Positions 31,756-62,615 of a DNA stretch of 64,000 nt are shown one piece after another. Under the pieces are notes generated by a model that saw only the letters and a program-made list of their open reading frames with translations, did no database searches and was not told where the DNA came from. Numbering within the stretch: the first letter of the stretch is position 1; each line of letters opens with the position of its first letter. The translations under genes and the position numbers were made by a program. This stretch comes from a virus (Duplodnaviria; Caudoviricetes), in IMG/VR virus record IMGVR_UViG_2828341930_000001, positions 72 to 64,071 of that record; one strand, written 5' to 3'.

Positions 31756-32043
31756 ATGATGAACGCAGCAAGTCCCATCCCCTTCGACGGCGTAAGCCTT
31801 CATATCCCGCTGCATGGCGGTGAGGTTTGGTCCGTGCAAGGCCGTGACCTTCTAAACGTCGCAGCGGTTCACACTGCCCACGCCGTTTTCGGCGAAGCTG
31901 GCGCCACTAGCCTGTGGGGCGATCTCGGCCTGCGCATTCTGCCCGACGAAGAATTGCGCCATCTGCTCGGTATGCTGAACCGGGACGTTCCTGATGATAC
32001 CTGGGACGATATCCTCGGCTCGTCTTCGGAAACGGAGGACTGA
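31756..32043 (+). CDS. Hypothetical protein
   Basis: AGGAG RBS. Confidence 0.55.
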   Translation: MMNAASPIPFDGVSLHIPLHGGEVWSVQGRDLLNVAAVHTAHAVFGEAGATSLWGDLGLRILPDEELRHLLGMLNRDVPDDTWDDILGSSSETED

Positions 32044-32044
32044 G

Positions 32045-32851
32045 ATGACCACGATGCTGACGGCTGTCCCGTTCCGGGATGACACACTCTTGGCCACCCG
32101 CACAGACAGTGGCGATGTGCTGGTGGCGGTCAAGCCGGTATGCGTTGCGTTGGGTTTGGATTGGAAGTCCCAGCAACTTCGGCTCCGTCGCGATGCGGTG
32201 CTGTCGGAAGGTAGGGTCATCATGACCCTACCTTCCGCCGGCGGCCTACAAGAGGCAATTTGCCTCCCCCTTCGCCTGATGAATGGTTGGCTTTTTGGCA
32301 TTGATGAAAACCGAGTTCGTCCAGAAATCCGCGACAAGGTCATTGCCTACAAGCGCGAATGCTATGACGTGCTGTGGCAGCACTTCCAACCGCCGGTTCC
32401 CACGTCGGTTCCAACAACTCAGCCTCTGTCGGATGCTTCAGGGGGTGACGAAATCCTGGAACTGACGGATGAACTGTCCGGCCTGCCCTACCAGGCCATG
32501 CGTGCCTGGATGGACATGATCCGCCTCGCGGGGCGGCTAAAGGGCCGGAACGCCGCCCTGGCGATGTGGGAACGGTCGCCGCTTCCCCAACTCCCCGGCG
32601 CGACCGTGACGCCCTCCGCCGTCGAGGTTGAGGACAGCCATACCGCCCATTTCGCGGCAGAAATGCTGACGACAGCGGAAGGCCAGTCCGTGCCCTTCGC
32701 CGCCGTCTATCAGGCCTATGAGCGTTGGTGCCGCCAGCAGCGTGAGATTGCCGCCAGCCGCATGGCGTTCAGCCGCCAAATGCGCGCCCTGGGCTTCGTC
32801 GCCACGCTCCGGCCGGCACCCATCCGGTTCCTGAACGTCGCCTTGGTTTGA
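32045..32851 (+). CDS. Phage antirepressor (P22 Ant N-terminal-like) with C-terminal winged helix
   Basis: VAVKPVCVALGLDWKSQ...CLPLRLMNGWLFGI...IAYKRECYDVLWQHF. Confidence 0.85.
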   Translation: MTTMLTAVPFRDDTLLATRTDSGDVLVAVKPVCVALGLDWKSQQLRLRRDAVLSEGRVIMTLPSAGGLQEAICLPLRLMNGWLFGIDENRVRPEIRDKVIAYKRECYDVLWQHFQPPVPTSVPTTQPLSDASGGDEILELTDELSGLPYQAMRAWMDMIRLAGRLKGRNAALAMWERSPLPQLPGATVTPSAVEVEDSHTAHFAAEMLTTAEGQSVPFAAVYQAYERWCRQQREIAASRMAFSRQMRALGFVATLRPAPIRFLNVALV

Positions 32852-42575: not shown

Positions 42576-43438
42576 TGGGTAACGTCGCCATTCTGTGGAA
42601 GCATGTATCCGACATAGGCGCCCTTACCGATGGCGGGGTCGCCGGTTGGGTGGAAAGTGGCGGGCTGAGCCTGCAAAACCTGCGGCTTCAGGACATCAAG
42701 AAGCCCGCCCGTTTCCTGAACATCGCCAGCCATGCCGCCCGGATGCAGGTGGACATGGGTAGCCTGCAGGCGGTGTCCAGCGTCGTGCTTGTCGCGCACA
42801 ACGCATCCGCCGCCGCCACCCTGACCCTAACGCTGTCGAATACGCCAGATTTCAGCGCCCCGGTGGCGACCGCGACGGGCCCCATGTGGCTGCCCACGGC
42901 CGTGCCGGGCACCCTGCCGTGGGGCGTTTGGCCGTGGAGCGGCGTTGACCGGGCCGCATACCCCACCACCTACACGGCTTATCTGCTGCTGTCGCAAACC
43001 TATTTCGCCCGCTACCTGCGGGTGGAGGTGACGGACCCCGCCAACCCGGATGGATATTTCCAGGCCGGGCGCCTGCTGGCGGGCGTCGCGTACCAGCCGC
43101 CGCGCAATTACAGCTATGGCCTGCACGTTAAGCCTGTGGACCCATCACAGACTTATGAAACCCCCGGCGGCGCCTTCGGCGCGGCATCCCGGCCCATGCG
43201 GCGGGAATTCGGGCTTCCTTTCGACTATCAGTCCAGGGAATTCGCCTGGGGCGTCCATCACGACATGTGCATGCGGCTGGGCATCCGACGGGAGTTGTTC
43301 ATCATCCTGAACCCGGATGAGGACGCGCCGTATCTGGCGCGGCAGATGTTCTATTGCCGGATGACTGACATGTCCGAGGTCACCAACACCCATCACAATT
43401 TGTGGGGCTTTTCCCCCACCTTTGCGGAGCTGATCTGA
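42575..43438 (+). CDS. Distal tail protein
   Basis: ARYLRVEVTDPANPDGYFQAGRL..., NYSYG. Confidence 0.7.
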   Translation: MGNVAILWKHVSDIGALTDGGVAGWVESGGLSLQNLRLQDIKKPARFLNIASHAARMQVDMGSLQAVSSVVLVAHNASAAATLTLTLSNTPDFSAPVATATGPMWLPTAVPGTLPWGVWPWSGVDRAAYPTTYTAYLLLSQTYFARYLRVEVTDPANPDGYFQAGRLLAGVAYQPPRNYSYGLHVKPVDPSQTYETPGGAFGAASRPMRREFGLPFDYQSREFAWGVHHDMCMRLGIRRELFIILNPDEDAPYLARQMFYCRMTDMSEVTNTHHNLWGFSPTFAELI

Positions 43439-47954: not shown

Positions 47955-48424
47955 TCATGATCCGCCGTATCAATTCCGCCGGCCTGGCGCTGCTGCGAGC
48001 CTTCGAAAGCTGCGAGCTGGAGGCTTACCGCGACGTCGCTGGGATCTGGACTATCGGTTGGGGGCACACCGGCCGCGATGTGGTGCCGGGCCTGGAAATC
48101 AATCAGCAGCGGGCGGACGCCCTGTTGCTGGGCGACCTGGACCCGGTGGAGCGGCGCCTGTCCACCCTTCGGGCACCGCTGAACGACAACCAGTTCGGCG
48201 CCTTCGCCGTTTTTCTGTTCAACGTGGGCCTGGGCGCCCTGAACGGTGAGGGCATGTCCGCCGCCCTATCCTCCCCAGATTGGGAGGTGGCGGTTCCGGT
48301 GCAAATGCTGCGCTGGAACAAGGCGACAGTGAAGGGGCAGAAAGTGGTTGTTCCCGGTCTGGCCCGCCGCCGCGAGGCTGAAGTGGCGATGTGGCAGACG
48401 CCCTGTGTTCCGGCCGCCGCCTGA
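47951..48424 (+). CDS. GH24 lysozyme endolysin
   Basis: FESCELEAYRDVAGIWTIGWGHT, FNVG, RWNKA...GLARRREAE. Confidence 0.92.
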   Translation: MIMIRRINSAGLALLRAFESCELEAYRDVAGIWTIGWGHTGRDVVPGLEINQQRADALLLGDLDPVERRLSTLRAPLNDNQFGAFAVFLFNVGLGALNGEGMSAALSSPDWEVAVPVQMLRWNKATVKGQKVVVPGLARRREAEVAMWQTPCVPAAA

Positions 48425-48485
48425 AACGCAAACCAAACAGACCGCAATCCGGGGCGCCTTGGGCGCCCTTTTTCATGGGGGTACC

Positions 48486-48941
48486 ATGGGCATCCTGCAA
48501 GAACTGCTGTCGCCAGCCTCGGGTGTCATCACGCCCGTGGTCAATAAATTGCTCGATTTCATCCCTGACCCCACGGCCAAGGCCCAAGCCGAAGCCGCCG
48601 CCTATAAGGAGGCGGCCGACCGGGCGCAACAGCTGAACCTGGCACAGCTGGACGTGAACAAGGCTGAGGCGCAGTCCGGCTCCGTCTTCGTCGCCGGGTG
48701 GCGTCCTGGGGCCGGCTGGGTTTGTGTCGGGGCCTTGGCCCTGTGCTACTGGCCCAAGGCCGTCGCCCTCACGTGGGTGTGGGTCTATCAGTCCTACATC
48801 ATGTTGGCGGCGAACCCCATGGCGGCCCCGCCCACCTTCCCTGACCTGGGCATCACCGACCTTCTGGGATTGCTGGCCAGCATGCTGGGCATGGGCGGCC
48901 TGCGCACCTTTGAAAAGCTCAAGGGCGTCCAGACGAAATGA
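48486..48941 (+). CDS. 3TM holin family protein
   Basis: LAQLDVNKAEAQSGSVFVAGWRPGAGW...MLGMGGLRTFEK. Confidence 0.85.
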   Translation: MGILQELLSPASGVITPVVNKLLDFIPDPTAKAQAEAAAYKEAADRAQQLNLAQLDVNKAEAQSGSVFVAGWRPGAGWVCVGALALCYWPKAVALTWVWVYQSYIMLAANPMAAPPTFPDLGITDLLGLLASMLGMGGLRTFEKLKGVQTK

Positions 48942-50861: not shown

Positions 50862-51005
50862 GCGTTCTAATTCCATGAGAATATTGAATTTTTCAGTCCG
50901 CAGGCCGTGGCGGCGACCACCTCCCCAGGTGGCGTAACCCCTTGCCACCTCCCCCGCCTCGCCTACCTCTTTTCCGTCACCATCGGGAGCCAGGTCACCC
51001 CCATC

Positions 51006-51783
51006 ATGAGCGCGACGGCGGCCACCACCACGGACAGTGCGGCGCGGCAGGCGGCGGAGGCCGAACTCGACCGCCAGCTCCAGCACGGCGCCCACCAGAT
51101 CGTCATGGACGCCACACGGCATCCGGTGGACCGGTCCAGCTTCCCCGTGGGCAGGCTGCCCACCGGCGTCAGCCTGGTGCAGTTCTGGCGCCTGGACGCC
51201 CCCAAGCTGCAGTTCCTGGAGTTCGAGTTCGACGCGCCCGCCGGCCGCCGGCCGCCGGGTGGACTACGGGGACGCCGTCAGCCAGCAGCTCATGACGGAG
51301 ATGCTGTCCGTCCGCCGCCTGGACGCAGGCAGCCTGTCGGCGCTCCTGTCCCGCATCCGCTCCCGCCTGCTGGCTGCCTACGGCCCCGGTAAGGGCGGCT
51401 TCATGGCGGCGATGCTCATGGCGCGGGTGAACCAAGCGGTGGAGCGGCCGGAGGATTTCCCCGCCCTGCTGAGCGACGCCGAGCTGCTCGCGGCCTACGG
51501 CATCTCCGAGAAGATGGCCAAGTCCTTCGGCCGGGGCGGCTTCGTGTTCGCTGGTGCCACCGGCGGGCCGCCTGTTGCACGTGAGGTCGCCCAGCGCATG
51601 ACCTGGTCCCTGCCGCGGTGGCTGGAGAACGTGGGCAAGGCCATGTCCAGCGAAGCCATCTTGCCTGTGGCGATGGGTATCGGCACGATCTCGTGGATCA
51701 TCTCGTCCGGGCACGACCATTTCGCCGACCGCAAGCAGACGTACAAGGAAGAGATGATCCGCCGCAACATGGCCATCCCATGA
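51006..51783 (+). pseudogene. Toxin-like protein A, frameshifted by a 7 bp tandem duplication
   Basis: 5' part in frame of ORF 50907, 3' part in frame of ORF 51037; joined product aligns end to end with 52334-53062. Confidence 0.75.
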
Positions 51784-52040
51784 CCGCCGTCGCCAAGACC
51801 TCGCCCCGCAATGCCGCCATCGCGCTCCTTTGGGTGATAGGGTTCGCCGCCTACCTGGTGGCGTTCGCCATGTTCCCCATGGACGCGGATCGCGCCTTCA
51901 GGTCGTGGAAGAACCTGTGCTTCCCGGCCGGCATCATCCTGGCGGCGGCGACCCGCCGGCGGCCCTTCGTCTCTGCGCTGTGCTGGGCGGGCTTCGGCGT
52001 TCTGGCCGTGGTCTTGGCCATGCTGACGCCGGTTCGCTGA
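51780..52040 (+). CDS. Small 3-TM protein (immunity-like 1)
   Basis: ATGA coupling; LW.IG...CFPAGII...RRPFVS motif shared with paralogs. Confidence 0.8.
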   Translation: MTAVAKTSPRNAAIALLWVIGFAAYLVAFAMFPMDADRAFRSWKNLCFPAGIILAAATRRRPFVSALCWAGFGVLAVVLAMLTPVR

Positions 52041-52051
52041 TGGTCGCGGTC

Positions 52052-52106
52052 GACCTGGAATGAACCGCAAATCCGTGAATCCCAGTTCGATTCCCGGGTC
52101 AGGTCT
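52052..52106 (+). pseudogene. Decayed tRNA-Cys(GCA) relic
   Basis: GCAAATCCGTG...CCCAGTTCGATTCCCGGGTCAGGTC; GACCTG/CAGGTC can pair; no D arm, T-stem mismatched. Confidence 0.5.
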
Positions 52107-52333
52107 TTTGCTCCAGCTGGCTTGTTGTGTTAAGCGGCCCAAAGGTTGCGCAAAACGGCGCATAATCCTGCGCGATTCGGCGCATAGGCCTGCCGTACTC
52201 GGACCTCCCGCCCCCCGGCCGCCCCCTCCCCCGTCAATTCTCGCCCACCTCCCCAGGTGGCATATCCCCTTGCCACACCCACCCTTGGTCCTACCTCCCT
52301 CTCATCACCACCGGGAGCCGGACCCGCCCCATC

Positions 52334-53062
52334 ATGGCCGCCGCCAACCCTTCCATCACCTCCGACCCCGCCGTCCAGCAGGCTGAAGCCGACCTCGATC
52401 GCCAGCTCGCCCAGGGCGCCCACCAGATCGTCATCGATGCGACGGGCCGCCGCGTCGACCGTGCCTCGTTCCCCGTCGGCCGCGTCCCTGCCGGCATGAC
52501 CCTCGTCCAGTTTTGGCGGCTGGATTTCCCCATTGCCGGCCAGTCCCTCAACTACGACGACCCGGCCGTCCAGCACCTCCTGCAGGACATGCTGTCCATC
52601 CGCCGCCTGGATGCCGGTGGGCTCACAGCCCTCCTATCTCGGATCCGTCGCACGCTGCTCGACGCCTACGGCACAGCCAAGGGCGGGTTGATGGCGGCGG
52701 CGCTCATGGCGCGGTGTCAGCAGGCCATTGAGCGGCCCGAGGACTTCCCGCCACTGCTCAGCGACGACGAGCTGCGCACCGGCTACACCGCGACCGGCCG
52801 GATCGCCAAGGGCTTCCACTACGGTGCCTGGGTCAACAACGCCGCCGCCGCGGAAAGCAACCGCGCCCGCGTCGTCGGCAGCACCTGGCTGCCAGCCTGG
52901 CTGCGGGAAACCTGCCAGGCGCTCTCTCGCGGCCCAGCAACCCCGATCAACCTGATGTTCATCTACATCGGCAAGATCCTGGGCACCGGCGAGGACTACA
53001 ACAACGCACGGCACCTGGCGTATCGTGACGAGATGAACCGCCGCCGGATGGCCATCCCATGA
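52334..53062 (+). CDS. Toxin-like protein B (paralog of A)
   Basis: 242 aa; conserved N-terminus, divergent partly hydrophobic C-terminus ending EMNRRRMAIP. Confidence 0.8.
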   Translation: MAAANPSITSDPAVQQAEADLDRQLAQGAHQIVIDATGRRVDRASFPVGRVPAGMTLVQFWRLDFPIAGQSLNYDDPAVQHLLQDMLSIRRLDAGGLTALLSRIRRTLLDAYGTAKGGLMAAALMARCQQAIERPEDFPPLLSDDELRTGYTATGRIAKGFHYGAWVNNAAAAESNRARVVGSTWLPAWLRETCQALSRGPATPINLMFIYIGKILGTGEDYNNARHLAYRDEMNRRRMAIP

Positions 53063-53331
53063 CCACGACGACCACCGAAGAGCGCCCACCGCTCCATCCC
53101 CGGACGCGGCGCGCCTACTTGGCCCTCTGGGTGCTGGGCGTTCTCGCCTTCGTGGGCGCCGCCTTCACGGACAGCCACCCGCCCACAGCCGGCCTGCGGT
53201 TCCTGGCTGATTCCCTATTCCCGGCCGGCCTACTCTTGGGCGGCATCACCTGGAAGCGGCCGTATCTCAGCGGAGCGCTGTGGCTGGCCTGCGGGCTGGC
53301 GGCGCTGGGTGTTGCCCTGGCGTTTCGGTGA
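53059..53331 (+). CDS. Small 3-TM protein (immunity-like 2)
   Basis: ATGA coupling; LFPAGLL...KRPYLS. Confidence 0.8.
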   Translation: MTTTTTEERPPLHPRTRRAYLALWVLGVLAFVGAAFTDSHPPTAGLRFLADSLFPAGLLLGGITWKRPYLSGALWLACGLAALGVALAFR

Positions 53332-53356
53332 GGGCGCGGGGCCTGGCGATACCGCG

Positions 53357-53608
53357 ATGACGGCCGAAGGCAAGCTCTCCCGGATCAGCCCGACCCTCAT
53401 CCTCTGGATCGCGGGCCTGGCCGCCTACGTCATGTCCACCGCCAGGTTCCCGGAGCACCTGGGGACCTGGGAGCAGCAGGTCTTCTACCTCCTGTTCCCA
53501 GCCGGGCTGATCTCGTCCTTCGCGGCGCGGAAGCGGCCCTGGCTGTCGGTGGGGCTGTGGTTGGTGTTCGGCTTGGTTGCCCTGGGAATGGCGTATTACG
53601 GGCGGTGA
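53357..53608 (+). CDS. Small 3-TM protein (immunity-like 3, orphan)
   Basis: LFPAGLI...KRPWLS. Confidence 0.8.
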   Translation: MTAEGKLSRISPTLILWIAGLAAYVMSTARFPEHLGTWEQQVFYLLFPAGLISSFAARKRPWLSVGLWLVFGLVALGMAYYGR

Positions 53609-53626
53609 CGTAGGTTTATTGACGCG

Positions 53627-53860
53627 ATGGCCACCGAAAAGCGCCCTCCGCTCCACCCCCAGATCGCGCGCCTGTGCGCTTTTGGGCGCCACTTTTATGA
53701 ACAGCCACCCGCCGACGGCGGGACTGCGGTTTCTGGCCAACTCCCTATTCGAGGGTTTCCTGCTCATGGGTGGCAGCACCTGGGAGCGGCGTATCTCAGC
53801 GGAGCGCTGTGGCTGGCGTGCGGGCTGGCAGCGCTGGGGTTCGCCTTAGCGTTAGGTAGG
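53627..53860 (+). pseudogene. Frameshifted copy of immunity-like 2
   Basis: RPPLHP, SHPPTAGLRFLANSLF and YLSGALWLACGLAALG spread over different frames. Confidence 0.75.
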
Positions 53861-54190
53861 TTGGAACACTCGACCGACTCCACCAATATTGCCCGCTGTG
53901 ACTGCTTGCCAGGGGTGTAGGCAATAAGGGATGTCCTCCTTTACATGTGTGTGCCCTAAATTCGACAGTGCAGTTGCTGTGGTTTGCATTTGTCCGCTTT
54001 GTGCCTCATGGTGGTCGTTGGGTAGATCAACATAGATCACCGATAGCGGACCTTGGCGATATCGCGGAAGGTCACTGGAAGCCTTCCACCAGCGATTTTT
54101 CGATCCCCCGATTGGGTTGTGGTTTGCTGGCCGCAAAAAGATAGCTTATTATTTGACATTTTAGCGCCACCAAATCTTTTCAGGTCAAAA

Positions 54191-55522
54191 ATGGCACAAC
54201 GTCCAAAAGCTCCCGCCAGAAAAACCAAACCAACTACGGACGCTGAGAGAAGAATAGACTTTAGGAGGGGCGTCCCAGAACTCCTCTACAGGCAAGCAGG
54301 TGGGCGGTGCTCTGTCCCTCGGTGCAAAAACCCTACAATGGGGCCATTTTACGAACGAGACGGCGCCGTAAACATGGGTGTTGCGTGCCATATATATAGT
54401 GCGGCTGAAGACGGGCCTCGGGGGAGGGGCGGAAAAGATGCTGATTTTATTAGCAGCGAAAAGAACGGAATATGGTGCTGCGAATACCATTCCCCACTGA
54501 TAGACAAAGCAAGAGGCTGCGACTATCCAGCAGAGGTTCTTTTTGCTTGGAAAGCCCTTATTGAAGCTCGCGTATTAAAAGAGATGAACGACTTCCCCTC
54601 TCCGCTAGGATGGGTGGATTCCATTGAATTTAGCGAATTCCCAGGATTGAAGCCTCTTCCAAAAATAACACTTTCCCGACGAACACTTATGACGGGACGA
54701 AACTGCAGCGGCAAGTCATCCCTTATGGAGGCCGCCGCATCTATTTCTCACTCAAGATATATGGACCGCTTCAGCGGAACGCGTATAAAAAATAAAGAAG
54801 GTGACTCGGAGCCGGCCACTTTCCGCGCCAAAGTGACGTACTCAACAGTTGATAGCTTAAGCAAGGAAATTGACCTAGAAATTAGGGGCATTGAACTTTC
54901 CAGACGAAACGGCACGATTCCGTATCTGTTGCCTCCAGGTGACATTGAGATCATCTACTGTTCTGAGTCCGACACGAGAAAGCTCGATCACGAAGACGAT
55001 ATTGATTTTTTGATGCGAACTCTGAATGTTGATAAGAGTGCCCTTTTTGCTCTTGCGAAAATTGGGGCCGGGCCGCTCTTTCCTGGTGACATTGCCTTTG
55101 TACATGCGACGGAATCAGACGACGACACCGAAGAAGAACGCCCAAAATTCAAAACAGACGGCTCTCCATATTTCGAACTAATGTTCAAGAGACGTGGATC
55201 ACAATGGCCTCCGCGCCCGTTTGACAACCTTTCAGGTAGCGAGAGAGGTAGCCTAATACTTGACCTCATTATACTCAAGGCCCGTGAGGTCAGCAAAGAA
55301 CGATTAACTCTCCTTCTTATTGAAAGCTTATCTGTGACTTTTGATCGAGGAAATTTTGAGGCACTGCTGAGGGCGCTTTCATCTGAGGACTTTCAGGTTA
55401 TCGTGCTCTTACCACCAGCAAGAGAGAATGATATTCTAGAGATGGGCGCGACAAAGCCTGTACTTCGCAAGCTAGATTATTTGGATTCTTGGCAACTTTC
55501 CGTAATAGGGGCGGAGGACTGA
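54191..55522 (+). CDS. HNH endonuclease fused to ABC-type ATPase-like domain
   Basis: CSVPRC...ACHIYSA..GPRG...NGIWCCEYH..ID; GRNCSGKS; LSGSE. Confidence 0.8.
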   Translation: MAQRPKAPARKTKPTTDAERRIDFRRGVPELLYRQAGGRCSVPRCKNPTMGPFYERDGAVNMGVACHIYSAAEDGPRGRGGKDADFISSEKNGIWCCEYHSPLIDKARGCDYPAEVLFAWKALIEARVLKEMNDFPSPLGWVDSIEFSEFPGLKPLPKITLSRRTLMTGRNCSGKSSLMEAAASISHSRYMDRFSGTRIKNKEGDSEPATFRAKVTYSTVDSLSKEIDLEIRGIELSRRNGTIPYLLPPGDIEIIYCSESDTRKLDHEDDIDFLMRTLNVDKSALFALAKIGAGPLFPGDIAFVHATESDDDTEEERPKFKTDGSPYFELMFKRRGSQWPPRPFDNLSGSERGSLILDLIILKAREVSKERLTLLLIESLSVTFDRGNFEALLRALSSEDFQVIVLLPPARENDILEMGATKPVLRKLDYLDSWQLSVIGAED

Positions 55523-55689
55523 GAACGCCTTCCTTTGGACAATTGCAGCTCAGGCGGAGAGGGCTTGGACAGAAGCTCCCTTCTACCGAACGAAGGCCAC
55601 CGCAAGATCGACAGCTATTGCGTGGACTCCGCCGCCTCGCAGCCCTGAGTCGTCGGTTGGGGTGCTGGTTCGGGATACGGGGGATACGG

Positions 55690-56210
55690 TGTCACTGGAT
55701 GTCAGGGCGCAGGATCTGCTGGCCGACACCGTCATCGTCAGCGACTACGCTGGACAGTTCCACGTCGGGCGCCATGCCTTGTGCTGGGTCCATGCCGAGC
55801 GCCTGGTCCACAAGCTCGACACCTTCACCGATCATCATCGCGCCGCCCAGCAGCGCATCCGCAGCCTGATCTGGTGGTTCTACGCCGACCTCAAGGCCTA
55901 TCGCCACGATCCGACGCCGGCGCGAAAGGCCGCCTTGCGTGCCCGCTTCGACCGCATCTTCAAACGCAAGACCGGCTTCGCCACCCTCGACAGGCTGCTC
56001 GCCCGCCTCCACGCCAACAAGCCGGAATTGCTGATGGTCCTCGACCAGCCCGATATCCCGCTTCACACCAACGGCTCGGAAAACGACATCCGCTGCCAGG
56101 TCACCAAGCGCAAGATCAGCGGCGGCACCCGCAGCGACACAGGCCGCCAATGCCGCGACGCCTTCCTCGGCCTGGCCAAGACATGCGCAAAACTCGGGCT
56201 CTCCTTCTGA
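55690..56210 (+). pseudogene. tnpC: IS66 transposase C-terminal fragment
   Basis: VSDYAGQF...HALCWVHAER...TNGSENDIR...KRKISGGTRS. Confidence 0.85.
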
Positions 56211-56224
56211 GACTATCTCGGCAA

Positions 56225-56573
56225 CAACCAGATGCACCGGCACAAAGGACGCCGCCTCAGGGGAGAGTTCGCCGCTCCGGATCTGCCGGCGCCATCGGTA
56301 GATCAGGCTGCTGCACACCCCATGGCGCCGTGCCACCGCCGCCACGGCCCCGCGACCACCACGCGCCTCGCCCACCAGGCGAATCTTCTCCTCCGCCGAA
56401 TAGGCGCGCCGCCCACCGGCCCCGGTGATGACCTCGATACGTTGGACTGCCACGGTGCAAACCACAACTGCTTGCCATGATGCCAAGCCGGCCACACACC
56501 CACGCGCCGCCGACACATAGCTTTCAGCACAACAGCCCCCGATCCAACAAGGCAGCCCACAGACGACGCTTAC
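56225..56573 (-). mobile_element. tnpA: IS66 left end with truncated tnpA
   Basis: GTAAGCGTC terminus at 56573; RIEVITG..RRAYSAEEK...VARRHGVCSSLIYRWRR. Confidence 0.8.
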
Positions 56574-57050
56574 GGTAAGTCCAGTCTGCTGGCCGATCCG
56601 AGCCTCGCCCTGCCACCACACTTCTACCGGCGTTCCCGGCGGGAACTGGCTCCCGATGCCCGCCAGGCGGGTTGGGAAGTTTTTTCGGCAATGTCTTCGG
56701 ACTTCTGACCGCGATGGCGCGGGCAGCCGAGAGCTTAAGATAGCCCAGTGCACGCAGTTCGCGGCCAAGGGTGAAGCACCTCATCGAGACGCCGAATTCG
56801 TCCCCCGGCAACTGGACCAGATCGAAAGACCGCCAGCGCACGACGCCGTGCACGGTTGGGATCGGCCCAACCTCGCCGGCTGCGGCCTGGCGCGCGCGGT
56901 GAATATCGTTCCGCAGCGATGCCTTGCTGGACGCCTTGCACGCCGCCAGGCGTCCGGGCCATTCGCATAACGATCCACGCGCCCGCCTTCGGTCTGGTGG
57001 CGTTCACCGCGAGGACTGTGTAGCACGCGCCTTGGCCATCTTGTTACTCC
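56574..57050 (-). pseudogene. IS630-family transposase remnant
   Basis: LGRELRALGY.KLSAR and VEVWWQGEARIGQQ (degenerate DEAR-GQ) in shifted frames. Confidence 0.65.
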
Positions 57051-57182
57051 CAACTCGGTGGCTGTCGGACGTGCCGATGGCGGGAGCGCTGCCGGCGGCC
57101 CAGGGGGGAATGGCCTGTCTCGTCCCCGCACTTGTGGATAGGGGGACAGCCAGACTGTTCCGGTTTCCCAGAAGGCTATCAA

Positions 57183-57884
57183 ATGGCGAACAACGGCCAC
57201 ACAACGCTTCCGGCTGGCACCGACAGCGACCTATTCCAGGTTGCGAAAACTGCAGCGGCCGAGGGTCGTCCCGAGGACATGTTGCAGGCACTGAGCGCCA
57301 GTATGTTTTTGGATGGCCTTGTGCGGATGCATCGGAAACGGTGGGGCCAGAAACTGCCGGCCTCGGAGATTGAAGACTGCATCGCCTCGAGCGTGGACGC
57401 AGCATATGACGGCATCCGGGCAGGAAAGCCCGTGCACGACCTTGGGGCCTGGCTTTGGAAGGTAGCGGATAAGGTCGCGCAAGACCGCTGGACCAATGAC
57501 TACCGGCACCGGCGGGGCGAGGCCAACGATCTGGCTGAAACTCCCGACCAAATCCTTGATGACGGGGAAAGGGCTGAGGCTGAAGCCTTAGCGGACCACA
57601 GGAAGTCGGAAGCTGTACGCTTTGCGCGCCGACTCCTGCCCCGCCTCGGCCAAGGACAGATCGCCGACGTTATGGCTCTGCTCATCGACGCCGTCGAGCA
57701 AGGCTTGCCCGACCTGCCCGCCAACTTGGTCGCTGACACGCTTAGCATCAGCGCTGGATCCGCACGCAAGCTCATGTCTAGGGGACTGGCGCGGCTGCAG
57801 CGTGAGGCAGCCAAGGAAGGCATCGAATTCCCAGACACCTTCGACGACAACACCGATAACAATCAACCCGAGGACGACCAATGA
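57183..57884 (+). CDS. ECF sigma-70-like protein
   Basis: Region 2 EIEDC...AWLWKVADKVAQDRW; region 4 VADTLSISAGSARKLMSRGLARL. Confidence 0.75.
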   Translation: MANNGHTTLPAGTDSDLFQVAKTAAAEGRPEDMLQALSASMFLDGLVRMHRKRWGQKLPASEIEDCIASSVDAAYDGIRAGKPVHDLGAWLWKVADKVAQDRWTNDYRHRRGEANDLAETPDQILDDGERAEAEALADHRKSEAVRFARRLLPRLGQGQIADVMALLIDAVEQGLPDLPANLVADTLSISAGSARKLMSRGLARLQREAAKEGIEFPDTFDDNTDNNQPEDDQ

Positions 57885-59410
57885 CCACGCCTCAGAACGA
57901 TTTTTCAACTGAGTTCCGCCAATTGATCGCGGACGCTCGGGCCCTTTCGTCCGACATCGGCGGAGTGGTGGAAGAGATCCTGCGATCCGGCTTGAACGAG
58001 CCGCTGTCAGACGAAGAGGCGCGCTCGCTACTGACCAGGGTTGCGCAGGTTATGCGGTCCAATGCTCAAGTCCGAGGTGACACCTCCACGATGGCGGCGC
58101 TCGACACCGGGATAGCCGAATTAGTTGATCGGGTCATGTCCGTTCACGATTTGCTCGGCAGCCGTTTCTTATCCACCACCATCACCAACCAGATACGGCC
58201 TATCGAACACGACGGTATCAAACCGCGTCCGGTTTTGCCCACGCCGGTTTTCCATGAGCGGCCTGTGCAGGTGGTAGAAGGGTTCGTCCGCACGCGAGAT
58301 ATCCAGCTCTGGGATGAAAACCAGCGCCTGGATATCCATCTCAACCAGTTTCAACAGGCCCATGGCCGGAAGCCTGATGCTGATGAGTTGCTGGAGATTA
58401 TGACGGGCGAGATGACCCTTCCGGGTCTCACCAAGGATGATCAGTTCGAAATCAAAAACTTGGCGCGAAGCATTGCGGTCAATGGAGTTCGTAAGCCGCC
58501 GATCATCGACATCGACGGCAAACTGCTTGACGGTAACCGCCGAACGGCGGCCTGCTACTTCATCCTCAACAGCCCTGATTTCGATGCTGATTCCAAGCGG
58601 CGAGTCGAATGGATGCTCGTTTGGCAGCTTACAGAGCATGCAACCGAGGCCGACCGGAATGCAGTGATAGTGTCCCTGAACTTCGAGCCAGACTTCAAGC
58701 AAGACTGGCCAGAATACGTGAAGGCACGGACCGTCTATGAACGTTGGCAGGGGTTGGTAGCGCTTGAACCACGCGGCAACCCCACGCTCTCCCGGCAGCG
58801 GGCGCTCAAGCGCGACATTGCGCGCACCTTCGCGATTTCGGCGGATGACGTCAGCCGCTATATTAGCATGGTCGAATTAACGGAAGATTTCGAGGATTAC
58901 CATGTCACCGAACGCAATCAAGATCAGTACGCAGTCAAGCATCGCAGCGAGCGATATTTCCAATACTTCGACGAACTAGGAAAGGGAAAAGGCGCTGGTG
59001 GCGTCTATTGGTCTCTCAACCAGGACGATAGCTTTAAGCACTTAGTCTACGACTTACTCTACGATGGAAAATTCCAAAATTGGAATAAAATTCGCGACCT
59101 CAAATACGTCTATTCGAATGAAGACGCAATGGCCTACTTGCGGCGGGCTCGTGACGAAAATGACCCAGAAGCCGGACAAGAGCTTGTCAACGACGCGTGC
59201 GGCTTCGCGCGGGCGTCCCGTGCTGAGACCCGTCAGGTCGGAGCGAACACGCGCGTCCATGTCTTCGTCGAGTGGTTCAAAGACCTTCCCGTGAAGACGT
59301 TCAAGCCTGGTGAGCCCGGGTCTATCAGCCAGGAGAATCTCCAGGGGCTGCGGACGGTTTTGGACATAGTGGAGAAGCACTTGCCAACCGCTGGCCGTGA
59401 GGAGAACTGA
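57881..59410 (+). CDS. ParB/Srx-like N-terminal-domain protein with HTH
   Basis: LARSIAVNGVRKPPII...LLDGNRR; DIARTFAISADDVSRY. Confidence 0.75.
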   Translation: MTTPQNDFSTEFRQLIADARALSSDIGGVVEEILRSGLNEPLSDEEARSLLTRVAQVMRSNAQVRGDTSTMAALDTGIAELVDRVMSVHDLLGSRFLSTTITNQIRPIEHDGIKPRPVLPTPVFHERPVQVVEGFVRTRDIQLWDENQRLDIHLNQFQQAHGRKPDADELLEIMTGEMTLPGLTKDDQFEIKNLARSIAVNGVRKPPIIDIDGKLLDGNRRTAACYFILNSPDFDADSKRRVEWMLVWQLTEHATEADRNAVIVSLNFEPDFKQDWPEYVKARTVYERWQGLVALEPRGNPTLSRQRALKRDIARTFAISADDVSRYISMVELTEDFEDYHVTERNQDQYAVKHRSERYFQYFDELGKGKGAGGVYWSLNQDDSFKHLVYDLLYDGKFQNWNKIRDLKYVYSNEDAMAYLRRARDENDPEAGQELVNDACGFARASRAETRQVGANTRVHVFVEWFKDLPVKTFKPGEPGSISQENLQGLRTVLDIVEKHLPTAGREEN

Positions 59411-59411
59411 C

Positions 59412-61187
59412 GTGGATCGCACTACGATGACCTACGTGACGGCCGATGTGCGGTTATCCGAAACGCTGGATGCCCTCTATGTAGTCCCTCAGGATCCTGC
59501 AGATGCTCTGACTATCCTGCGGCGACTTTCCGCCTCCATGCCGACGGCGGGACTCCGACGTGGTGCGGGGGGGATCCGTGTCGGGCGTGAAAACGCCACA
59601 TACCTGAAAATAGGCACCCCCGGCCTTAACTTGGTATGGGCCTCCGAAGCCCGACAGTTTGTCGCCAACCGGGAACGTGTGGCGGCCGCCTACCCTGCAG
59701 TGCGGGCCTCCATCGAAGGAATAAAAGCTGGCGGCCCCGACGCAGCCCGCTTGTTCATCAAGGACAGCGACGGGTTGAATGTCCTCGACAGGCACCAAGT
59801 CACCAACGTGGCTGCCATGACCGTACCGGAGGGATTTGGGTTGTGCGTCTTCGACGAACAGGGCGCCGGCAAGACGGTCACCATGATTTATGCGTTCGAT
59901 TTGATGGTTGCCCGGGACGAAGTCGACTTGCTCGTTATCGTAGCGCCTAAGAGCATGGTGGCCGAGTGGCCGAAGGACTTCGCGACGTTCCGCGGGGACT
60001 TATACCGGGTGGCTATCTTGACCGGAACCAGTGTGCAAAAGCGATCGACCCTGCGTTCAGGTGCCGATGTCCTTGTCATGAACTTCGAAACGGCCGTAGC
60101 GTTGGAGGCGGAGTTGAAGTCCTTGCTACGAAACAAAGACGGGCGCGCGGTTCTGGCGATCGACGAATCGTTTTTCATCAAATCGTTGGATGCCAAACGA
60201 ACTCGGGCGCTTCGGCGTCTCCGCGAGTGGTGCGGGCGGGCCTATGTGCTTTGTGGCACGCCAGCACCCAATGCACCGCAGGATCTGGTCCAGCAATTCA
60301 GCCTTGTAGATTTTGGGTTGGCGTTCGAGGGGCTGGAACTGCCCAAGGACCGAGAGACGGCTATGCCGTTGGTACAAGAGGTGGTCGACACTCGTGGCCT
60401 CTACATTCGGCACCTCAAAACCGACGTCCTGCCCGACTTACCACAAAAGCAGTTCCAACGGATTTACGTGCCGATGGAACCGCGTCAACGACGCCTCTAT
60501 GAAGGCGCTCTAAATAGGTTGGTGGATGACGCTGAAGCCGCGTCTGACCGAGACTTCCAGAAGACCTATGCCAACTTCCTCGCTCGGCGAGCCGCCCTGC
60601 TACAGGTTTGTTCCAACCCACAGGGCATCGACCCCTCGTATAAAGAGACCCCGTCAAAGCTCGCCACGATGGACAACATTCTCCACGAACTGGTCGAGCA
60701 ACGGGGAGAGAAGGTGGTGGTCTGGTCGTTCTACACCGCTTCAGTGACGGCGCTGGTCGAGCGCTACGCACGGTATGGAACGCTACGTTATGACGGTCAA
60801 GTTAGCAACATCACCGAACGGCGGGAAGCAGTGAGGCGCTTCCAGCAGGATGCAGACGCCAAAATCCTTGTCGCCAACCCCGCAGCCGCGGGTGCAGGAC
60901 TCACGCTGCATAGTGCCCGGATTGCAATTTATGAATCCCTTTCGAACCAGGCAGCGCACTACCTGCAAAGTCTCGACAGAATCCACCGGCGCGGCCAGAC
61001 TAGGGATGTTGAATACTTGGTGCTGCTTTGTGACGGAACGATCGAGGTTCAGGAGTATGATCGGCTTATCCGCAAGGAGCGCGCCGCCCAAGATCTCCTG
61101 GGAGACCAGGTGAGCGCCCCAGTGACACGAGAATCCTTCTTAGCGGATGCTCGCGCCGCTGTGGAATTCCTGAGCCGATCCCAATAA
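59412..61187 (+). CDS. SNF2-family helicase/translocase
   Basis: DEQGAGKT, VAPKS, IDESF, CGTP, AAGAGLTL, QSLDRIHRRGQ; GGAG RBS before GTG at 59412. Confidence 0.9.
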   Translation: MDRTTMTYVTADVRLSETLDALYVVPQDPADALTILRRLSASMPTAGLRRGAGGIRVGRENATYLKIGTPGLNLVWASEARQFVANRERVAAAYPAVRASIEGIKAGGPDAARLFIKDSDGLNVLDRHQVTNVAAMTVPEGFGLCVFDEQGAGKTVTMIYAFDLMVARDEVDLLVIVAPKSMVAEWPKDFATFRGDLYRVAILTGTSVQKRSTLRSGADVLVMNFETAVALEAELKSLLRNKDGRAVLAIDESFFIKSLDAKRTRALRRLREWCGRAYVLCGTPAPNAPQDLVQQFSLVDFGLAFEGLELPKDRETAMPLVQEVVDTRGLYIRHLKTDVLPDLPQKQFQRIYVPMEPRQRRLYEGALNRLVDDAEAASDRDFQKTYANFLARRAALLQVCSNPQGIDPSYKETPSKLATMDNILHELVEQRGEKVVVWSFYTASVTALVERYARYGTLRYDGQVSNITERREAVRRFQQDADAKILVANPAAAGAGLTLHSARIAIYESLSNQAAHYLQSLDRIHRRGQTRDVEYLVLLCDGTIEVQEYDRLIRKERAAQDLLGDQVSAPVTRESFLADARAAVEFLSRSQ

Positions 61188-61202
61188 ACAACCAAACATC
61201 AC

Positions 61203-62615
61203 TTATTCCGCTGCGAGCATGAGTTCGTCTTTTACATCAATAATTTCATCTGCCGCCGGGTGTAATCTCTTTCGACCACCAACCGAGATCAGGTGCTTTA
61301 ACTCATTGAGCCGTTCAGGCGGCACATATTCAAAGGCATCAGCGCGCATCCGTGAGCCCTCCTGATGCCAATCCGAGATCGTACTCCCTTTGGTGTCGTT
61401 CCTCATGTGGGGAGGATTAACGATCGTCCGAGGGCGCCGCAGCATCTTCGCCAAGAGGTCGAGATTCCAACACTCGACGCGTCCATAGCTGCGTCCGGTT
61501 CCTTCTTGCGCCTGCGCTGCTATAAGGGCTTGGCCTATTGCTTTGCCGAGGCCCACTGGCACCGCATTGCCGACCTGCTCGTACTTTTGCCTAACCGACC
61601 CGGCAAAGGTCCAATCTTCCGGGAATTGCTGGATCCGAGCATATTCGCGGATGGAAAGCGGGCGCAACTCGGTGGGGTGGCAGAGGCTTGTGGCTTTGCT
61701 ATCTGGCCTCGTCGTGAGCGCTGGACTTGGTCGGTCGAAGCTCAGGCGGCGAAAGAAACCAGACCGTCCTCCCCACGAAACAAATGCCCGGCCTAGCGCT
61801 TCCGACTGCAACTCTTCGGGCAAGGCTCGCCAGTTCCCACCTTCGGGAACCATGGCGAGGTATTTAGCCTTGCTTGGGCAAAGCTTCGTGAATTCGGGAG
61901 CAGGGTCTTCCAGCCCCTCAAGCGCGGATCGAAGTATTTGCCACTTGGGAAGTCCATTGTCGCCATTCCGATCGTGGGTCGCAGCCGGCATAGCGATCCG
62001 TTCGTGATACCGCGTCCCCAAGAACACTAGACGCTCTCTGGCCTGCGGGACGCCAAAGTCCGCCGCATTCAGGATGTCGAAGATGGTGTAATATCCAAGC
62101 TCGCGCAAAGTGGAGGCGACAGTTTTCAAGGCCGAACCCAACTCCTCGTCGGGCTCCAGTGTGGGATAGCCAGGACCTCGTTCTTTCAGGGATCGATGCT
62201 TCACCGCAGCCGAAAGTAAGCCGCGAACATTTTCCATGACAAAGAAATGCGGCTGGGCTTCCCGCACGACCCGAGCGAAATGCTGAAAGAGCGTGCCGCG
62301 TGGGTCGCTGAGAGAACTGCGCGCGCCTGCAGTGCTGAAAGCCTGACAGGAGGGACCGCCAGCCACTGCGAAGGCCTCTCCCGGTTTGAGCCCTGCCGCT
62401 TCTAAAATTTCTGTCGTGGTGACGTCTTCGATTTTTCGGTCGATGACCGGCAGGCCGGGCCGGTTGGCGCGGATGGTGGCAACGGCCACGGGGTTGCATT
62501 CAACAGCTACCGCAACGTGCAGGCCTGCGGCTTCAAGGCCGAGATCAAGGCCCATTGCTCCTGAAAAAAGAGAAATTACGGGCAGGTCGGGGCGACTATC
62601 GCTTCGGCCTATCAT
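61203..62615 (-). CDS. C5 DNA cytosine methyltransferase
   Basis: LFSGAMG, GGPSCQ, MENV, QARER, REYARIQ, VGNAVP. Confidence 0.95.
   Translation of the reverse strand: MIGRSDSRPDLPVISLFSGAMGLDLGLEAAGLHVAVAVECNPVAVATIRANRPGLPVIDRKIEDVTTTEILEAAGLKPGEAFAVAGGPSCQAFSTAGARSSLSDPRGTLFQHFARVVREAQPHFFVMENVRGLLSAAVKHRSLKERGPGYPTLEPDEELGSALKTVASTLRELGYYTIFDILNAADFGVPQARERLVFLGTRYHERIAMPAATHDRNGDNGLPKWQILRSALEGLEDPAPEFTKLCPSKAKYLAMVPEGGNWRALPEELQSEALGRAFVSWGGRSGFFRRLSFDRPSPALTTRPDSKATSLCHPTELRPLSIREYARIQQFPEDWTFAGSVRQKYEQVGNAVPVGLGKAIGQALIAAQAQEGTGRSYGRVECWNLDLLAKMLRRPRTIVNPPHMRNDTKGSTISDWHQEGSRMRADAFEYVPPERLNELKHLISVGGRKRLHPAADEIIDVKDELMLAAE

What the first reader, a model, noticed from the sequence alone, without database searches (positions are those of the whole stretch)
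54191..55522. Single-chain HNH nuclease plus degenerate ABC-ATPase: candidate one-gene defence system
Seen: Zn-binding HNH of the type found in CBASS HNH-SAVED effectors, followed by an ABC-like domain with intact Walker A (GRNCSGKS) and signature (LSGSE) but Walker B LLLIES instead of hhhhDE and no switch histidine; AT-rich. Known: Septu and PARIS use ABC ATPase sensors with separate nucleases. Inference: a fused sensor-effector in which nucleotide binding, not hydrolysis, gates the nuclease.
Basis: partly seen in the sequence, partly recalled or inferred. Interest (0 to 1): 0.7.

Follow-up and report, generated by a model that had tools for sequence, protein, structure and literature searches.

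The report
Solo HNH nuclease–ATP-binding head fusion
One horizontally acquired gene next to a prophage joins an immune-type DNA-cutting domain to an ATP-binding "head" that has lost its ATP-splitting residues. It is probably an untested single-gene anti-phage protein from a rare, unnamed family.

Summary
Window 54191-55522 (+) is an intact 443-aa gene. Residues ~21-135 are a Cap5/SPARHA-type zinc HNH nuclease. Residues ~139-443 are a compact SMC/Rad50/RecF-like ABC ATPase head with no coiled coil.

Across 220 relatives, Walker A, the Walker B acid, the LSxSE signature and a D-loop Asp are conserved. The catalytic Glu, the Q-loop Gln and the switch His are missing family-wide.

The gene stands alone: 29 loci share no neighbour. 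It is low-GC, about 4.4 kb past a prophage lysis cassette, and was not found in nine same-genus genomes. Elsewhere its immediate neighbours include Hachiman, restriction-modification, HerA and MADS genes.

PADLOC, Pfam and NCBIfam have no full-length model, and I found no paper describing it.

Best reading: a one-gene abortive-infection or anti-MGE nuclease in which ATP-glued head pairing, not hydrolysis, assembles the HNH domains into an active oligomer. The trigger and the substrate are unknown, and nothing has been tested experimentally.

It is a new variant of the known ABC-ATPase-plus-nuclease theme (OLD, GajA, Septu, PARIS). This scan has noted similar fusions before on other DNA.

The parts
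54191..55522 (+). Whole gene, 443 aa plus stop; single copy in the 7.09 Mb genome
   Evidence: Relatives are 425-445 aa long, which supports the ATG at 54191 over the upstream in-frame TTG at 54053.
54251..54595 (+). Cap5/SPARHA-type HNH nuclease module (residues 21-135), including the N-terminal helix (28-35) and the C-terminal helix (114-133) that joins it to the sensor domain
   Evidence: PADLOC 2.3e-16 and 4e-15; PDB profile hits to Cap5 7rwk at 2e-9 and SPARHA 9om4 at 5e-8; VIA-align Z 12.5, rmsd 2.7 A.
54377..54508 (+). HNH beta-beta-alpha core: H67, GPRG (75-78), N92, C97, H100, D105. With C40 and C45 (54305-54325, RCSVPRC) these are the likely zinc and catalytic-metal ligands.
   Evidence: H67, N92, C97 and D105 are in 220/220 relatives, H100 in 99%, C40 and C45 in 91-92% (the rest are gaps in truncated rows). 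Which ligand binds which metal was not resolved here.
54605..55519 (+). SMC/Rad50/RecF-like ABC ATPase head without a coiled coil (residues 139-443)
   Evidence: Foldseek E 1e-10. VIA-align: Z 15.9 SMC, 15.7 Rad50, 15.1 RecF, 14.0 LmuB, 13.3 PtuA. Pfam SMC_N, AAA_29 and AAA_21 all score below their cut-offs.
54695..54718 (+). Walker A, GRNCSGKS (residues 169-176)
   Evidence: G174 in 99% and K175 in 96% of 220 relatives; residue 176 is always S or T apart from one row.
55229..55243 (+). ABC signature, LSGSE (residues 347-351)
   Evidence: L347 in 86% and E351 in 85% of the family; the consensus is LSx[SG]E.
55307..55327 (+). Walker B, TLLLIES (residues 373-379). The acid is kept (E378), but the catalytic-Glu position is Ser.
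   Evidence: Position 378 is D or E in 118/118 close and 98/102 distant relatives. Position 379 is E in only 5/118 close relatives and is G/S/A/L/D in the distant clade.
55334..55348 (+). D-loop-like VTFDR (D385)
   Evidence: D385 is present in 113/118 close and 65/102 distant relatives.
55391..55417 (+). FQVIVLLPP: invariant Q402 opens the last core strand, and Pro-Pro sits where related ATPases carry the switch His
   Evidence: Q402 is in 219 of 220 aligned relatives (the one exception is a gap). No column of the ATPase module has His in 30% or more of sequences. That this is the usual position of the switch His rests on my own knowledge of the AAA_21/RecF C-terminal motif.

Best explanation
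This is a stand-alone, horizontally acquired immune nuclease carried as cargo just past the lysis genes of a prophage.

The N-terminal Cap5-type HNH domain is the killing part, most likely a DNase. The C-terminal SMC/RecF-like ABC head replaces the SAVED sensor of Cap5 at the same junction helix, and acts as a nucleotide-dependent pairing switch.

Proposed steps:
1. ATP and Mg bind through Walker A and the Walker B acid.
2. Two heads sandwich the ATP with the LSxSE signature and the D-loop.
3. Because the catalytic Glu, Q-loop Gln and switch His are missing, the engaged state is long-lived rather than cycling.
4. Head pairing, together with HNH-HNH pairing through the N-terminal helix, brings the HNH domains into the higher-order oligomer that Cap5 and SPARHA nucleases need for activity. 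Nucleic acid is then cut and infection is aborted.

Shown here: the domain identities, the motif pattern, the solo gene context, the mobile setting and purifying selection.

Inferred: the defence role, ATP as the ligand, oligomerisation as the activating step, and DNA as the substrate.

Unknown: what keeps the heads apart in uninfected cells, and what the trigger is (a phage protein, DNA ends or structures, or a shift in nucleotide pools).

Rough odds: immune or anti-MGE nuclease about 0.7; gating by nucleotide binding without real turnover about 0.45.
For: Domains:
- HNH.
- ABC head.
- One confident rigid model, pLDDT 89 and pTM 0.85.

Motifs over 220 relatives:
- The HNH catalytic residues are invariant.
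- Walker A Lys is in 96%, and the Walker B acid is almost universal.
- The signature and D-loop are kept.
- The catalytic-Glu position is variable, and the ATPase module has no conserved Gln or His apart from Q402.
- E125 and W141 at the domain junction are conserved in 98-99%.

Solo gene:
- 29 loci from Proteobacteria, Acidobacteriota, Verrucomicrobiota, Actinomycetota and Chloroflexota share only this gene. This was tested within 6 kb for ORFs of 80 aa or more, and within 900 bp for ORFs of 28 aa or more.
- No longer fusions turned up. The 16 short hits are mostly from very short contigs; at least two lie on long contigs, where they look like miscalled or decayed copies.

Mobility:
- Gene GC is below flank GC in 25 of 28 loci.
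- No match in nine same-genus genomes.
- One relative keeps the upstream module but has a different low-GC ORF at the same spot.
- None of 400 other sampled genomes of the phylum has a full-length copy.

Defence context:
- The window holds a prophage with a tape measure gene, a P22 Ant-like gene and a holin.
- Immediate neighbours of homologues include HamA/HamB, a type I restriction enzyme, a type IIG restriction-modification enzyme, HerA, MADS mad2/3/8 and methyltransferases.
- Other contexts show pPIWI-RE, ParDE, TacAT and transposases.

Selection: dN/dS is 0.38 against the 87%-identical homologue. Against the 70% homologue, synonymous sites are saturated while pN is 0.18.

Precedent: Cap5 and SPARHA HNH domains are activated by tetramerisation (PMC12738770; PMC12141522 abstract).
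Against: - There is no experimental evidence of defence, ATP binding or nuclease activity for any member.
- I found no full-length model in PADLOC v2, Pfam or NCBIfam, and no description in the papers held. I had no background control for the neighbour counts, so defence-island enrichment is qualitative.
- At millimolar cellular ATP, a head that binds but cannot hydrolyse would be engaged all the time. An extra, unidentified lock or trigger is therefore needed.
- Position 379 is Asp in 49 of 118 close relatives. Asp could support slow hydrolysis, so 'no hydrolysis' is not proven.
- Nine of 220 members lack the Walker A Lys.
- In retron-Eco7, the HNH partner of an ABC ATPase leads to tRNA-Tyr degradation (PMC12673091 abstract), so DNA is not a certain substrate.
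- The simple promoter and terminator scan found nothing near the gene. That scan is weak for this kind of genome.
Confidence: 0.55

Rival explanations
1. It is the same immune nuclease, but the head is a working DNA clamp of the Rad50/RecF kind. ATP-engaged heads bind DNA ends, gaps or replication intermediates of the invader, slow non-canonical hydrolysis resets the clamp, and the HNH cuts the clamped DNA directly. This would make it a single-chain SbcCD- or Lamassu-like sensor rather than a pure binding switch.
For: The best structural matches are Rad50, SMC and RecF heads (Z 15-16), with the Lamassu LmuB head at 14.0. An acidic residue follows the Walker B acid in about 45% of close relatives. 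[quoted passage not shown]
Against: The catalytic Glu, Q-loop Gln and switch His are all unconserved in 220 relatives. There is no coiled coil, no partner subunit and no recognisable DNA-binding insert. The residue after the Walker B acid varies freely (D/G/S/N/E), which argues against selection for catalysis.
Confidence: 0.2
2. It is not host immunity. It could be a selfish or phage-serving nuclease (degrading host or competitor DNA, homing-type mobility, or an addiction module), or an accessory DNA-repair factor of the RecF/RecN/SbcC type.
For: The gene lies beside prophage late genes. HNH nucleases are common selfish elements in phages (PMC10448857 abstract). The head resembles repair ATPases.
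Against: No full-length copy was found in 50,697 phage records; five records matched over the N-terminal third only (24-31% of the query). Most homologues sit in chromosomal islands that are not prophages. The HNH belongs to the immune Cap5/SPARHA clade. The distribution is too sparse for a repair function. No small conserved antitoxin-like ORF is present.
Confidence: 0.12
3. It is one part of a multi-gene system with its window neighbours. These are either the upstream duplicated 250-aa and small-membrane-protein array (50.9-53.9 kb), or the downstream three-gene SNF2 operon with the C5 methyltransferase (57.1-62.6 kb).
For: All three blocks lie in one low-GC mosaic region. ABC ATPase plus nuclease systems often have further subunits.
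Against: None of these neighbours recurs next to any of 28 other family members. A relative keeps the upstream module without this gene. A transposase remnant separates the gene from the SNF2 block.
Confidence: 0.05

Closest known systems
Cap5, the CBASS HNH-SAVED effector (PDB 7RWK, 8FMF)
   Same: Same HNH clade: 29% identity, Z 12.5, rmsd 2.7 A, with the shared CxxxxC...AHI..A..GPRG...N..C..H..ID pattern. The same long helix links the nuclease to a C-terminal ligand-binding sensor domain, and the overall size (~380-440 aa) is similar.
   Different: The sensor is an ABC ATPase head, not SAVED. No CD-NTase or any other partner gene is present. The ligand would be ATP or another common nucleotide, not a dedicated second messenger.
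SPARHA HNH-APAZ effector (PDB 9OM4; PMC12738770)
   Same: Related HNH domain (profile E 5e-8). That HNH is activated by oligomerisation or filament formation, with an N-terminal helix mediating HNH dimerisation.
   Different: The C-terminal domain there is APAZ bound to a short Argonaute, and activation is guide- and target-dependent. Here there is no pAgo and no APAZ.
Septu (PtuA ABC ATPase + PtuB HNH) and retron-Eco7/Ec78
   Same: An ABC-type ATPase paired with an HNH nuclease in anti-phage defence. The PtuA head is a structural match at Z 13.3 (PMC12819146 and PMC12673091 abstracts).
   Different: Septu has two genes and a multi-subunit complex. Here PtuA models match only the P-loop (E 0.005-0.04; NCBIfam PtuA scores 10 bits against a 500-bit cut-off), and no PtuB model appears among the 25 PADLOC rows shown, of 27 matched. 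This HNH is Cap5-type and N-terminal in one chain. I did not check whether PtuA keeps the hydrolytic residues.
OLD-family nucleases (P2 Old, GajA) and the PARIS AriA/AriB pair
   Same: An ABC ATPase sensor coupled to a nuclease effector, in Old and GajA on a single chain, often carried as prophage cargo (PMC10568477 and bioRxiv 10.64898/2026.07.10.737580 abstracts).
   Different: The effector there is TOPRIM and C-terminal. GajA and AriA are weaker structural matches (Z 12.0 and 12.3). No TOPRIM is present here.
Lamassu / ABC-3C systems with HNH effectors (PADLOC candidate PDC-M68)
   Same: The PDC-M68A model matches the HNH at 1.4e-13. [quoted passage not shown] The LmuB head matches at Z 14.0.
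   Different: In those systems the effector, the coiled-coil SMC-like ATPase and the middle component are separate genes. Here the nuclease is fused directly to a head without a coiled coil, and no partner is present.

Membership tests
Cap5 (CBASS HNH-SAVED effector) | Cap5-type zinc HNH nuclease domain at the N-terminus | tested here: met
   PADLOC PDLC00739 at 2.3e-16 and PDLC01997 at 4e-15; 7rwk at 2e-9; Z 12.5, rmsd 2.7 A.
Cap5 (CBASS HNH-SAVED effector) | C-terminal SAVED domain that binds a cyclic oligonucleotide | tested here: not met
   PADLOC matches stop at profile position ~111 of 368-378. Residues 139-443 fold as an SMC/Rad50/RecF head.
Cap5 (CBASS HNH-SAVED effector) | Operon with a CD-NTase | tested here: not met
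   Ten window neighbours gave no CBASS hit in PADLOC. No conserved neighbour in 29 loci.
Septu (PtuAB) | PtuA-family ABC ATPase | tested here: not met
   PADLOC PtuA models score E 0.005-0.04 over the P-loop only. NCBIfam NF041760 PtuA scores 10.2 bits against a 500-bit cut-off. The fold is still similar (Z 13.3).
Septu (PtuAB) | Separate PtuB HNH gene next to PtuA | tested here: not met
   The HNH is fused and of the Cap5 type. No PtuB model appears among the 25 PADLOC rows shown, of 27 matched, and no partner gene is conserved.
OLD family / GajA | N-terminal ABC ATPase with a C-terminal TOPRIM nuclease | tested here: not met
   No TOPRIM hit in Pfam or PADLOC. GajA matches the P-loop only (E 0.006). 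The domain order is the reverse.
Lamassu / ABC-3C (incl. PDC-M68) | Three components: an effector with a C-terminal adaptor region, an SMC-like ATPase with a coiled coil, and a middle component | tested here: not met
   PDC-M68A matches only its first ~113 of 253 positions. The model has no coiled coil. No conserved neighbours.
ABC ATPase superfamily, SMC/Rad50/RecF-like heads (fold level) | ABC head fold with Walker A, the Walker B acid, the signature motif and the D-loop | tested here: met
   Z 15-16 to SMC, Rad50 and RecF. The motifs are conserved in 220 relatives.
ABC ATPase superfamily, SMC/Rad50/RecF-like heads (fold level) | Hydrolytic set: catalytic Glu after Walker B, Q-loop Gln, switch His | tested here: not met
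   Position 379 is E in 5 of 118 close relatives. The ATPase module has no conserved Gln or His apart from Q402. So this is a degenerate member.
Named anti-phage systems in PADLOC-DB v2.0.0 | Full-length match to any system protein model | tested here: not met
   Only domain-level matches were found, both for this protein and for ten distant relatives. DefenseFinder and databases later than 2023 could not be run.

The most novel reading that the evidence does not exclude
The family may be a natural 'hydrolysis-dead' ABC switch. Each protomer would have two self-pairing surfaces: an ATP-glued head-to-head contact and an HNH-to-HNH contact. Once an unknown lock is released, the protein would polymerise into filaments that build Cap5-like HNH tetramers. 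The head could also read the nucleotide pool itself (the ATP/ADP balance, or phage-altered dNTPs, as in PrrC) instead of a dedicated second messenger. That would be a cyclase-free counterpart of CBASS in a single gene.
Probability: 0.2. Interest if true: 0.75.

Novelty: new variant of a known kind. Interest (0 to 1): 0.55.

Why it matters
ABC ATPase plus nuclease is a recurring design in bacterial immunity (OLD, Gabija, PARIS, Septu, Lamassu). In the characterised cases the ATPase is thought to cycle. This family fuses the Cap5/SPARHA 'suicide' HNH directly to a minimal SMC-like head that has kept every ATP-binding and dimer-forming motif but lost all three hydrolytic elements across at least five phyla.

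If it defends, it would be one of the smallest sensor-effector immune proteins known. It would also be a clean test of whether nucleotide-dependent head pairing alone can license a nuclease. And it would show that the Cap5 nuclease module can be driven by sensors other than SAVED or Argonaute.

Practically, it is an unannotated 'hypothetical protein' that defence-finding tools currently miss.

Tried and rejected
- Krishnan et al. 2020 (NAR, the ABC ATPase classification) may already list this fusion. It is not held, so I could not check it.
- Literature searches for PDC-M68, Cap5-like HNH plus ATPase, and fused HNH/ABC defence proteins found no description of this architecture.
- 9OM4 turned out to be the SPARHA HNH-APAZ protein, not an HNH-ATPase.
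- The P2-EC46 Z-region ORF2 and the 'lysogenic conversion protein' of Yersinia phage vB_YenM_31.17 share only the HNH. Their C-terminal parts have no Walker A, so they do not place this family at the P2 cargo site.
- The search for longer fused forms found none, and the tool itself rates that as weak evidence. The 16 short hits are mostly contig-end fragments; a few on long contigs look like miscalled or decayed copies.
- The sigma-70 promoter and terminator scan found nothing around the gene. I do not treat this as evidence either way.
- No attachment-site repeats bracketing the gene or the prophage were found in the window, so it is unresolved whether the gene lies inside the prophage borders.
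- Pfam gave nothing for the ORFs that occupy the equivalent position in a related genome.
- A same-sequence look-up in earlier scan notes found nothing.
Full report
**1. What is there**

The ORF runs from the ATG at 54191 to the stop at 55520-55522 and encodes 443 aa. An in-frame TTG at 54053 would add 46 residues. Relatives are 425-445 aa long and their conserved sequence begins at R21, so 54191 is the likely start.

The gene is 48.5% GC in a window that is mostly 62-72% GC.

**2. Domains**

PADLOC matches residues 25-130 to the CBASS HNH effector models: 2.3e-16 for the 'Effector Endonuclease' model, 4e-15 for SAVED_HNH, and 1.4e-13 for the candidate PDC-M68A. The matches always cover only the first ~110 positions of those profiles.

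A profile of 30 relatives finds three PDB entries through the same ~100 residues:
- Cap5 7rwk, at 2e-9.
- The SPARHA HNH-APAZ protein 9om4, at 5e-8.
- 8ysq (a SAVED-domain protein), at 1.5e-7.

The rest of the protein gives only sub-threshold P-loop hits to AAA_29, SMC_N, AAA_21, RecF and PtuA.

An AlphaFold2 model built on the family alignment is confident, with pLDDT 89 and pTM 0.85. Structure searches split it cleanly into two parts:
- Residues 139-443 align with SMC, Rad50 and RecF heads. Foldseek gives E 1e-10 to 1e-7. VIA-align gives Z 15.9, 15.7 and 15.1, followed by LmuB 14.0, PtuA 13.3, AriA 12.3 and GajA 12.0.
- Residues 23-134 align with Cap5 at Z 12.5, rmsd 2.7 A and 29% identity.

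The model has no coiled coil. Short helices and beta-hairpins (about residues 259-345) fill the place where SMC and Rad50 insert theirs.

The helix at 114-133 that joins the two domains also aligns with Cap5. So the ABC head sits where Cap5 carries SAVED.

**3. The family and its motifs**

More than 150 full-length proteins at 46-87% identity exist in public data. All are unnamed or generically annotated, with no functional or system name. They come from Methylomonas, Photobacterium, Komagataeibacter, Burkholderia, Ralstonia, Pseudomonas, Vibrio, Aeromonas, Pectobacterium and others.

An exhaustive HMMER search finds 71 cluster representatives at E<=1e-30. It also reveals a more distant full-length clade at 27-36% identity and ~380-410 aa. 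Genome contigs place that clade in Acidobacteriota, Verrucomicrobiota, Actinomycetota, Chloroflexota and Bradyrhizobium. A Priestia plasmid carries a 25%-identical copy that covers 90% of the query.

The ESM Atlas lists a 658-member cluster without common Pfam families. It also lists a 125-member, mainly actinobacterial, cluster with the same predicted fold (TM 0.68/0.77).

I aligned 220 members and scored the motif columns. In the HNH domain:
- H67, N92, C97 and D105 are invariant.
- H100 is in 99% of sequences.
- C40 and C45 are in all non-truncated sequences.
- The GPRG loop is invariant.

In the ATPase module:
- Walker A has G174 in 99% and K175 in 96%.
- The Walker B acid is D or E in 216 of 220.
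- The signature is LSx[SG]E.
- The D-loop Asp is in 113/118 close relatives and 65/102 distant ones.
- Q402 is present in all 219 sequences that have a residue at that column.

By contrast, the residue after the Walker B acid is Glu in only 5 of 118 close relatives. Elsewhere it is D, G, S, N, A or L. No Gln is conserved between Walker A and the signature, and no His is conserved anywhere in the module.

The pattern keeps everything needed to bind ATP-Mg and form the ATP sandwich dimer. It lacks the three elements that normally carry out hydrolysis. This interpretation rests on general ABC ATPase enzymology, not on an experiment here.

**4. A stand-alone gene**

I compared all ORFs of 80 aa or more within 6 kb across 29 loci: the window, 14 close-clade loci and 14 distant-clade loci. 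The only cluster shared beyond near-identical strains is the gene itself. ORFs of 28 aa or more within 900 bp gave no conserved small partner.

Precomputed annotations of four contexts agree. The gene has intergenic gaps on both sides, and the neighbours differ every time.

No longer fused forms were found (weak evidence). The 16 short hits are mostly from contigs under 2 kb; at least two lie on long contigs, where they look like miscalled or decayed copies.

**5. Mobility and context**

Gene GC is below flank GC in 25 of 28 loci.

The window carries a prophage late region with these genes:
- A P22 Ant-like gene at 31994-32851.
- A 2175-aa tape measure protein at 34519-41046.
- A lectin-fold tail protein at 43402-46371.
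- A holin at 48348-48941.

The gene lies about 4.4 kb past the last ORFs of the apparent lysis cluster (~49.8 kb; only the holin has a database match), in a mosaic low-GC stretch that also holds a transposase remnant (55692-56768).

The gene is single-copy in its 7.09 Mb genome. No DNA match to window ~54020-55900 was found in nine same-genus genomes.

One of those relatives keeps the module just upstream (window 52064-54019, 72-81% identity). Homology then breaks off, and the relative carries a different 194-aa ORF of about 40-51% GC in the same position. This looks like a cargo hotspot.

In an even sample of 400 other genomes of the phylum, none has a full-length copy; two have HNH-only matches. 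The family is therefore rare and patchy.

Of 139 immediate neighbours (three per side in 26 loci), PADLOC at E<=1e-10 recognises the following:
- Hachiman HamA and HamB.
- A type I restriction enzyme.
- A type IIG restriction-modification enzyme.
- HerA.
- MADS mad2, mad3 and mad8.
- An AriA-like ATPase.
- Several methyltransferases.

Other contexts show pPIWI-RE, ParDE, TacAT and transposases. I had no background control, so this is qualitative support for a defence-island habitat.

**6. Selection**

Against the 87%-identical homologue, dN/dS is 0.38 overall, 0.22 for the HNH and 0.44 for the head. Against the 70% homologue, synonymous sites are saturated (pS 0.79) while pN is 0.18. The gene is maintained by selection.

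**7. Mechanism**

Cap5 and SPARHA HNH domains are inactive as dimers. They cut DNA once a sensor domain drives tetramer or filament formation, with an N-terminal helix forming the basic HNH dimer (PMC12738770; PMC12141522 abstract).

In this family that helix, the catalytic core and the junction helix are all conserved, and the sensor is an ABC head. ABC heads pair when two ATP molecules are sandwiched between Walker A of one head and the signature of the other.

The best-supported reading is therefore that nucleotide-dependent head pairing is the licensing step for HNH oligomerisation. The missing hydrolytic residues would make the engaged state persistent.

What keeps the heads apart before infection is not known, and neither is the trigger. 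The substrate is most likely DNA by homology. [quoted passage not shown]

The main rival keeps the immune role but treats the head as a Rad50/RecF-type DNA clamp with slow hydrolysis.

**8. Comparison with what is known**

The protein fails the membership tests for five families:
- Cap5: there is no SAVED domain and no CD-NTase.
- Septu: no PtuA or PtuB family match, and the protein is one chain.
- OLD/GajA: there is no TOPRIM domain.
- Lamassu/ABC-3C: there is no coiled coil and no partner genes.
- PADLOC v2: no model matches over the full length.

It works like the ABC-ATPase-plus-nuclease class as a whole, and its nuclease is a true relative of Cap5 and SPARHA.

The SPARHA paper notes that this HNH clade is linked to STAND ATPases, PPR domains, ABC-3C effectors and MTAN. 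It does not mention a direct fusion to an ABC head.

The one paper most likely to have catalogued such a fusion, Krishnan et al. 2020, is not held.

Earlier notes of this scan report similar solo HNH-ABC fusions on other DNA, with the same reading: e1-277865, e1-491566 and e1-3816377. They are AI notes and not independent evidence. No sequence overlap with this gene was found.

**9. Verdict**

I class it as a new variant of a known kind: an unnamed, rare, single-gene HNH-ABC candidate defence protein with a family-wide non-hydrolytic head. Interest is moderate, because the architecture fits a familiar theme and nothing has been tested experimentally.

The host is probably an Azospirillum-like alphaproteobacterium. 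This rests only on a 7.1 Mb, ~67% GC genome and a transposase 81% identical to those on Azospirillum sp. B510 plasmids, so it is tentative.

Noticed in passing
window 34519-41046 (+), repeats at 39600-40292: The prophage tape measure protein (2175 aa, TMP_2 domain near the N-terminus) carries multiple EF-hand calcium-binding motifs in its C-terminal quarter. They lie partly in three tandem 231-nt repeats.
   Followed up: partly
window 50914-53920 (+): A tandem duplicated module sits just upstream of the gene. Two paralogous ~245-aa ORFs (51037-51783 and 52334-53062, 72-75% nt identity) are followed by paralogous ~90-aa hydrophobic ORFs (53059-53331; 53577/53627-53920). None has a Pfam, PADLOC or PHROG match. 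Copies exist in several same-genus genomes.
   Followed up: partly
window 57132-62615: A three-gene plus-strand operon (250 aa, 509 aa, and a 596-aa SNF2 helicase resembling ZorD/DpdE/DrmD helicase regions) converges on a C5 cytosine methyltransferase (61203-62615, minus strand). GC is 56-58%. It is a possible separate methylation-linked defence module and is not linked to the HNH-ABC gene in other genomes.
   Followed up: partly
window 55692-56768 (-): An ORF with a transposase HTH_Tnp_1 domain lies immediately downstream of the gene. A 350-nt stretch (about 56225-56575) is 81-98% identical to IS copies in same-genus genomes and to transposase genes on Azospirillum sp. B510 plasmids.
   Followed up: partly
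L067:4924-5508 (relative G003, contig 9): In a same-genus genome, the spot equivalent to the HNH-ABC gene holds a different low-GC (40-51%) 194-aa ORF with no Pfam match. At a second copy of the upstream module (L068) it is followed by a 540-aa plus 643-aa gene pair, also without Pfam hits. This may be a cargo hotspot worth mining.
   Followed up: partly
L009:488-1594 (phage P2-EC46 Z region) and L069:~2486-3628 (Yersinia phage vB_YenM_31.17): P2-like phages carry, at a lysogenic-conversion locus, a ~370-380-aa protein with the same Cap5-type HNH fused to a different, unnamed C-terminal domain without a Walker A. In P2-EC46 it sits next to a Peptidase_U49 (Lit-like) gene. In the Yersinia phage record the annotated start appears to cut off the HNH domain.
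   Followed up: partly
proteins P0027 and P0059: Two family members are ~570 aa long. They carry about 130 extra residues and a precomputed PF00684 hit (to my knowledge the DnaJ cysteine-rich domain). They could be an extended form or a gene-calling artefact.
   Followed up: no
plasmid hits H16-H22: About 60 Salmonella, Escherichia, Klebsiella and Citrobacter plasmids, those listed being about 106-111 kb, encode a 'hypothetical protein' that shares only the Cap5-type HNH (37-45% identity over ~105-125 aa).
   Followed up: no
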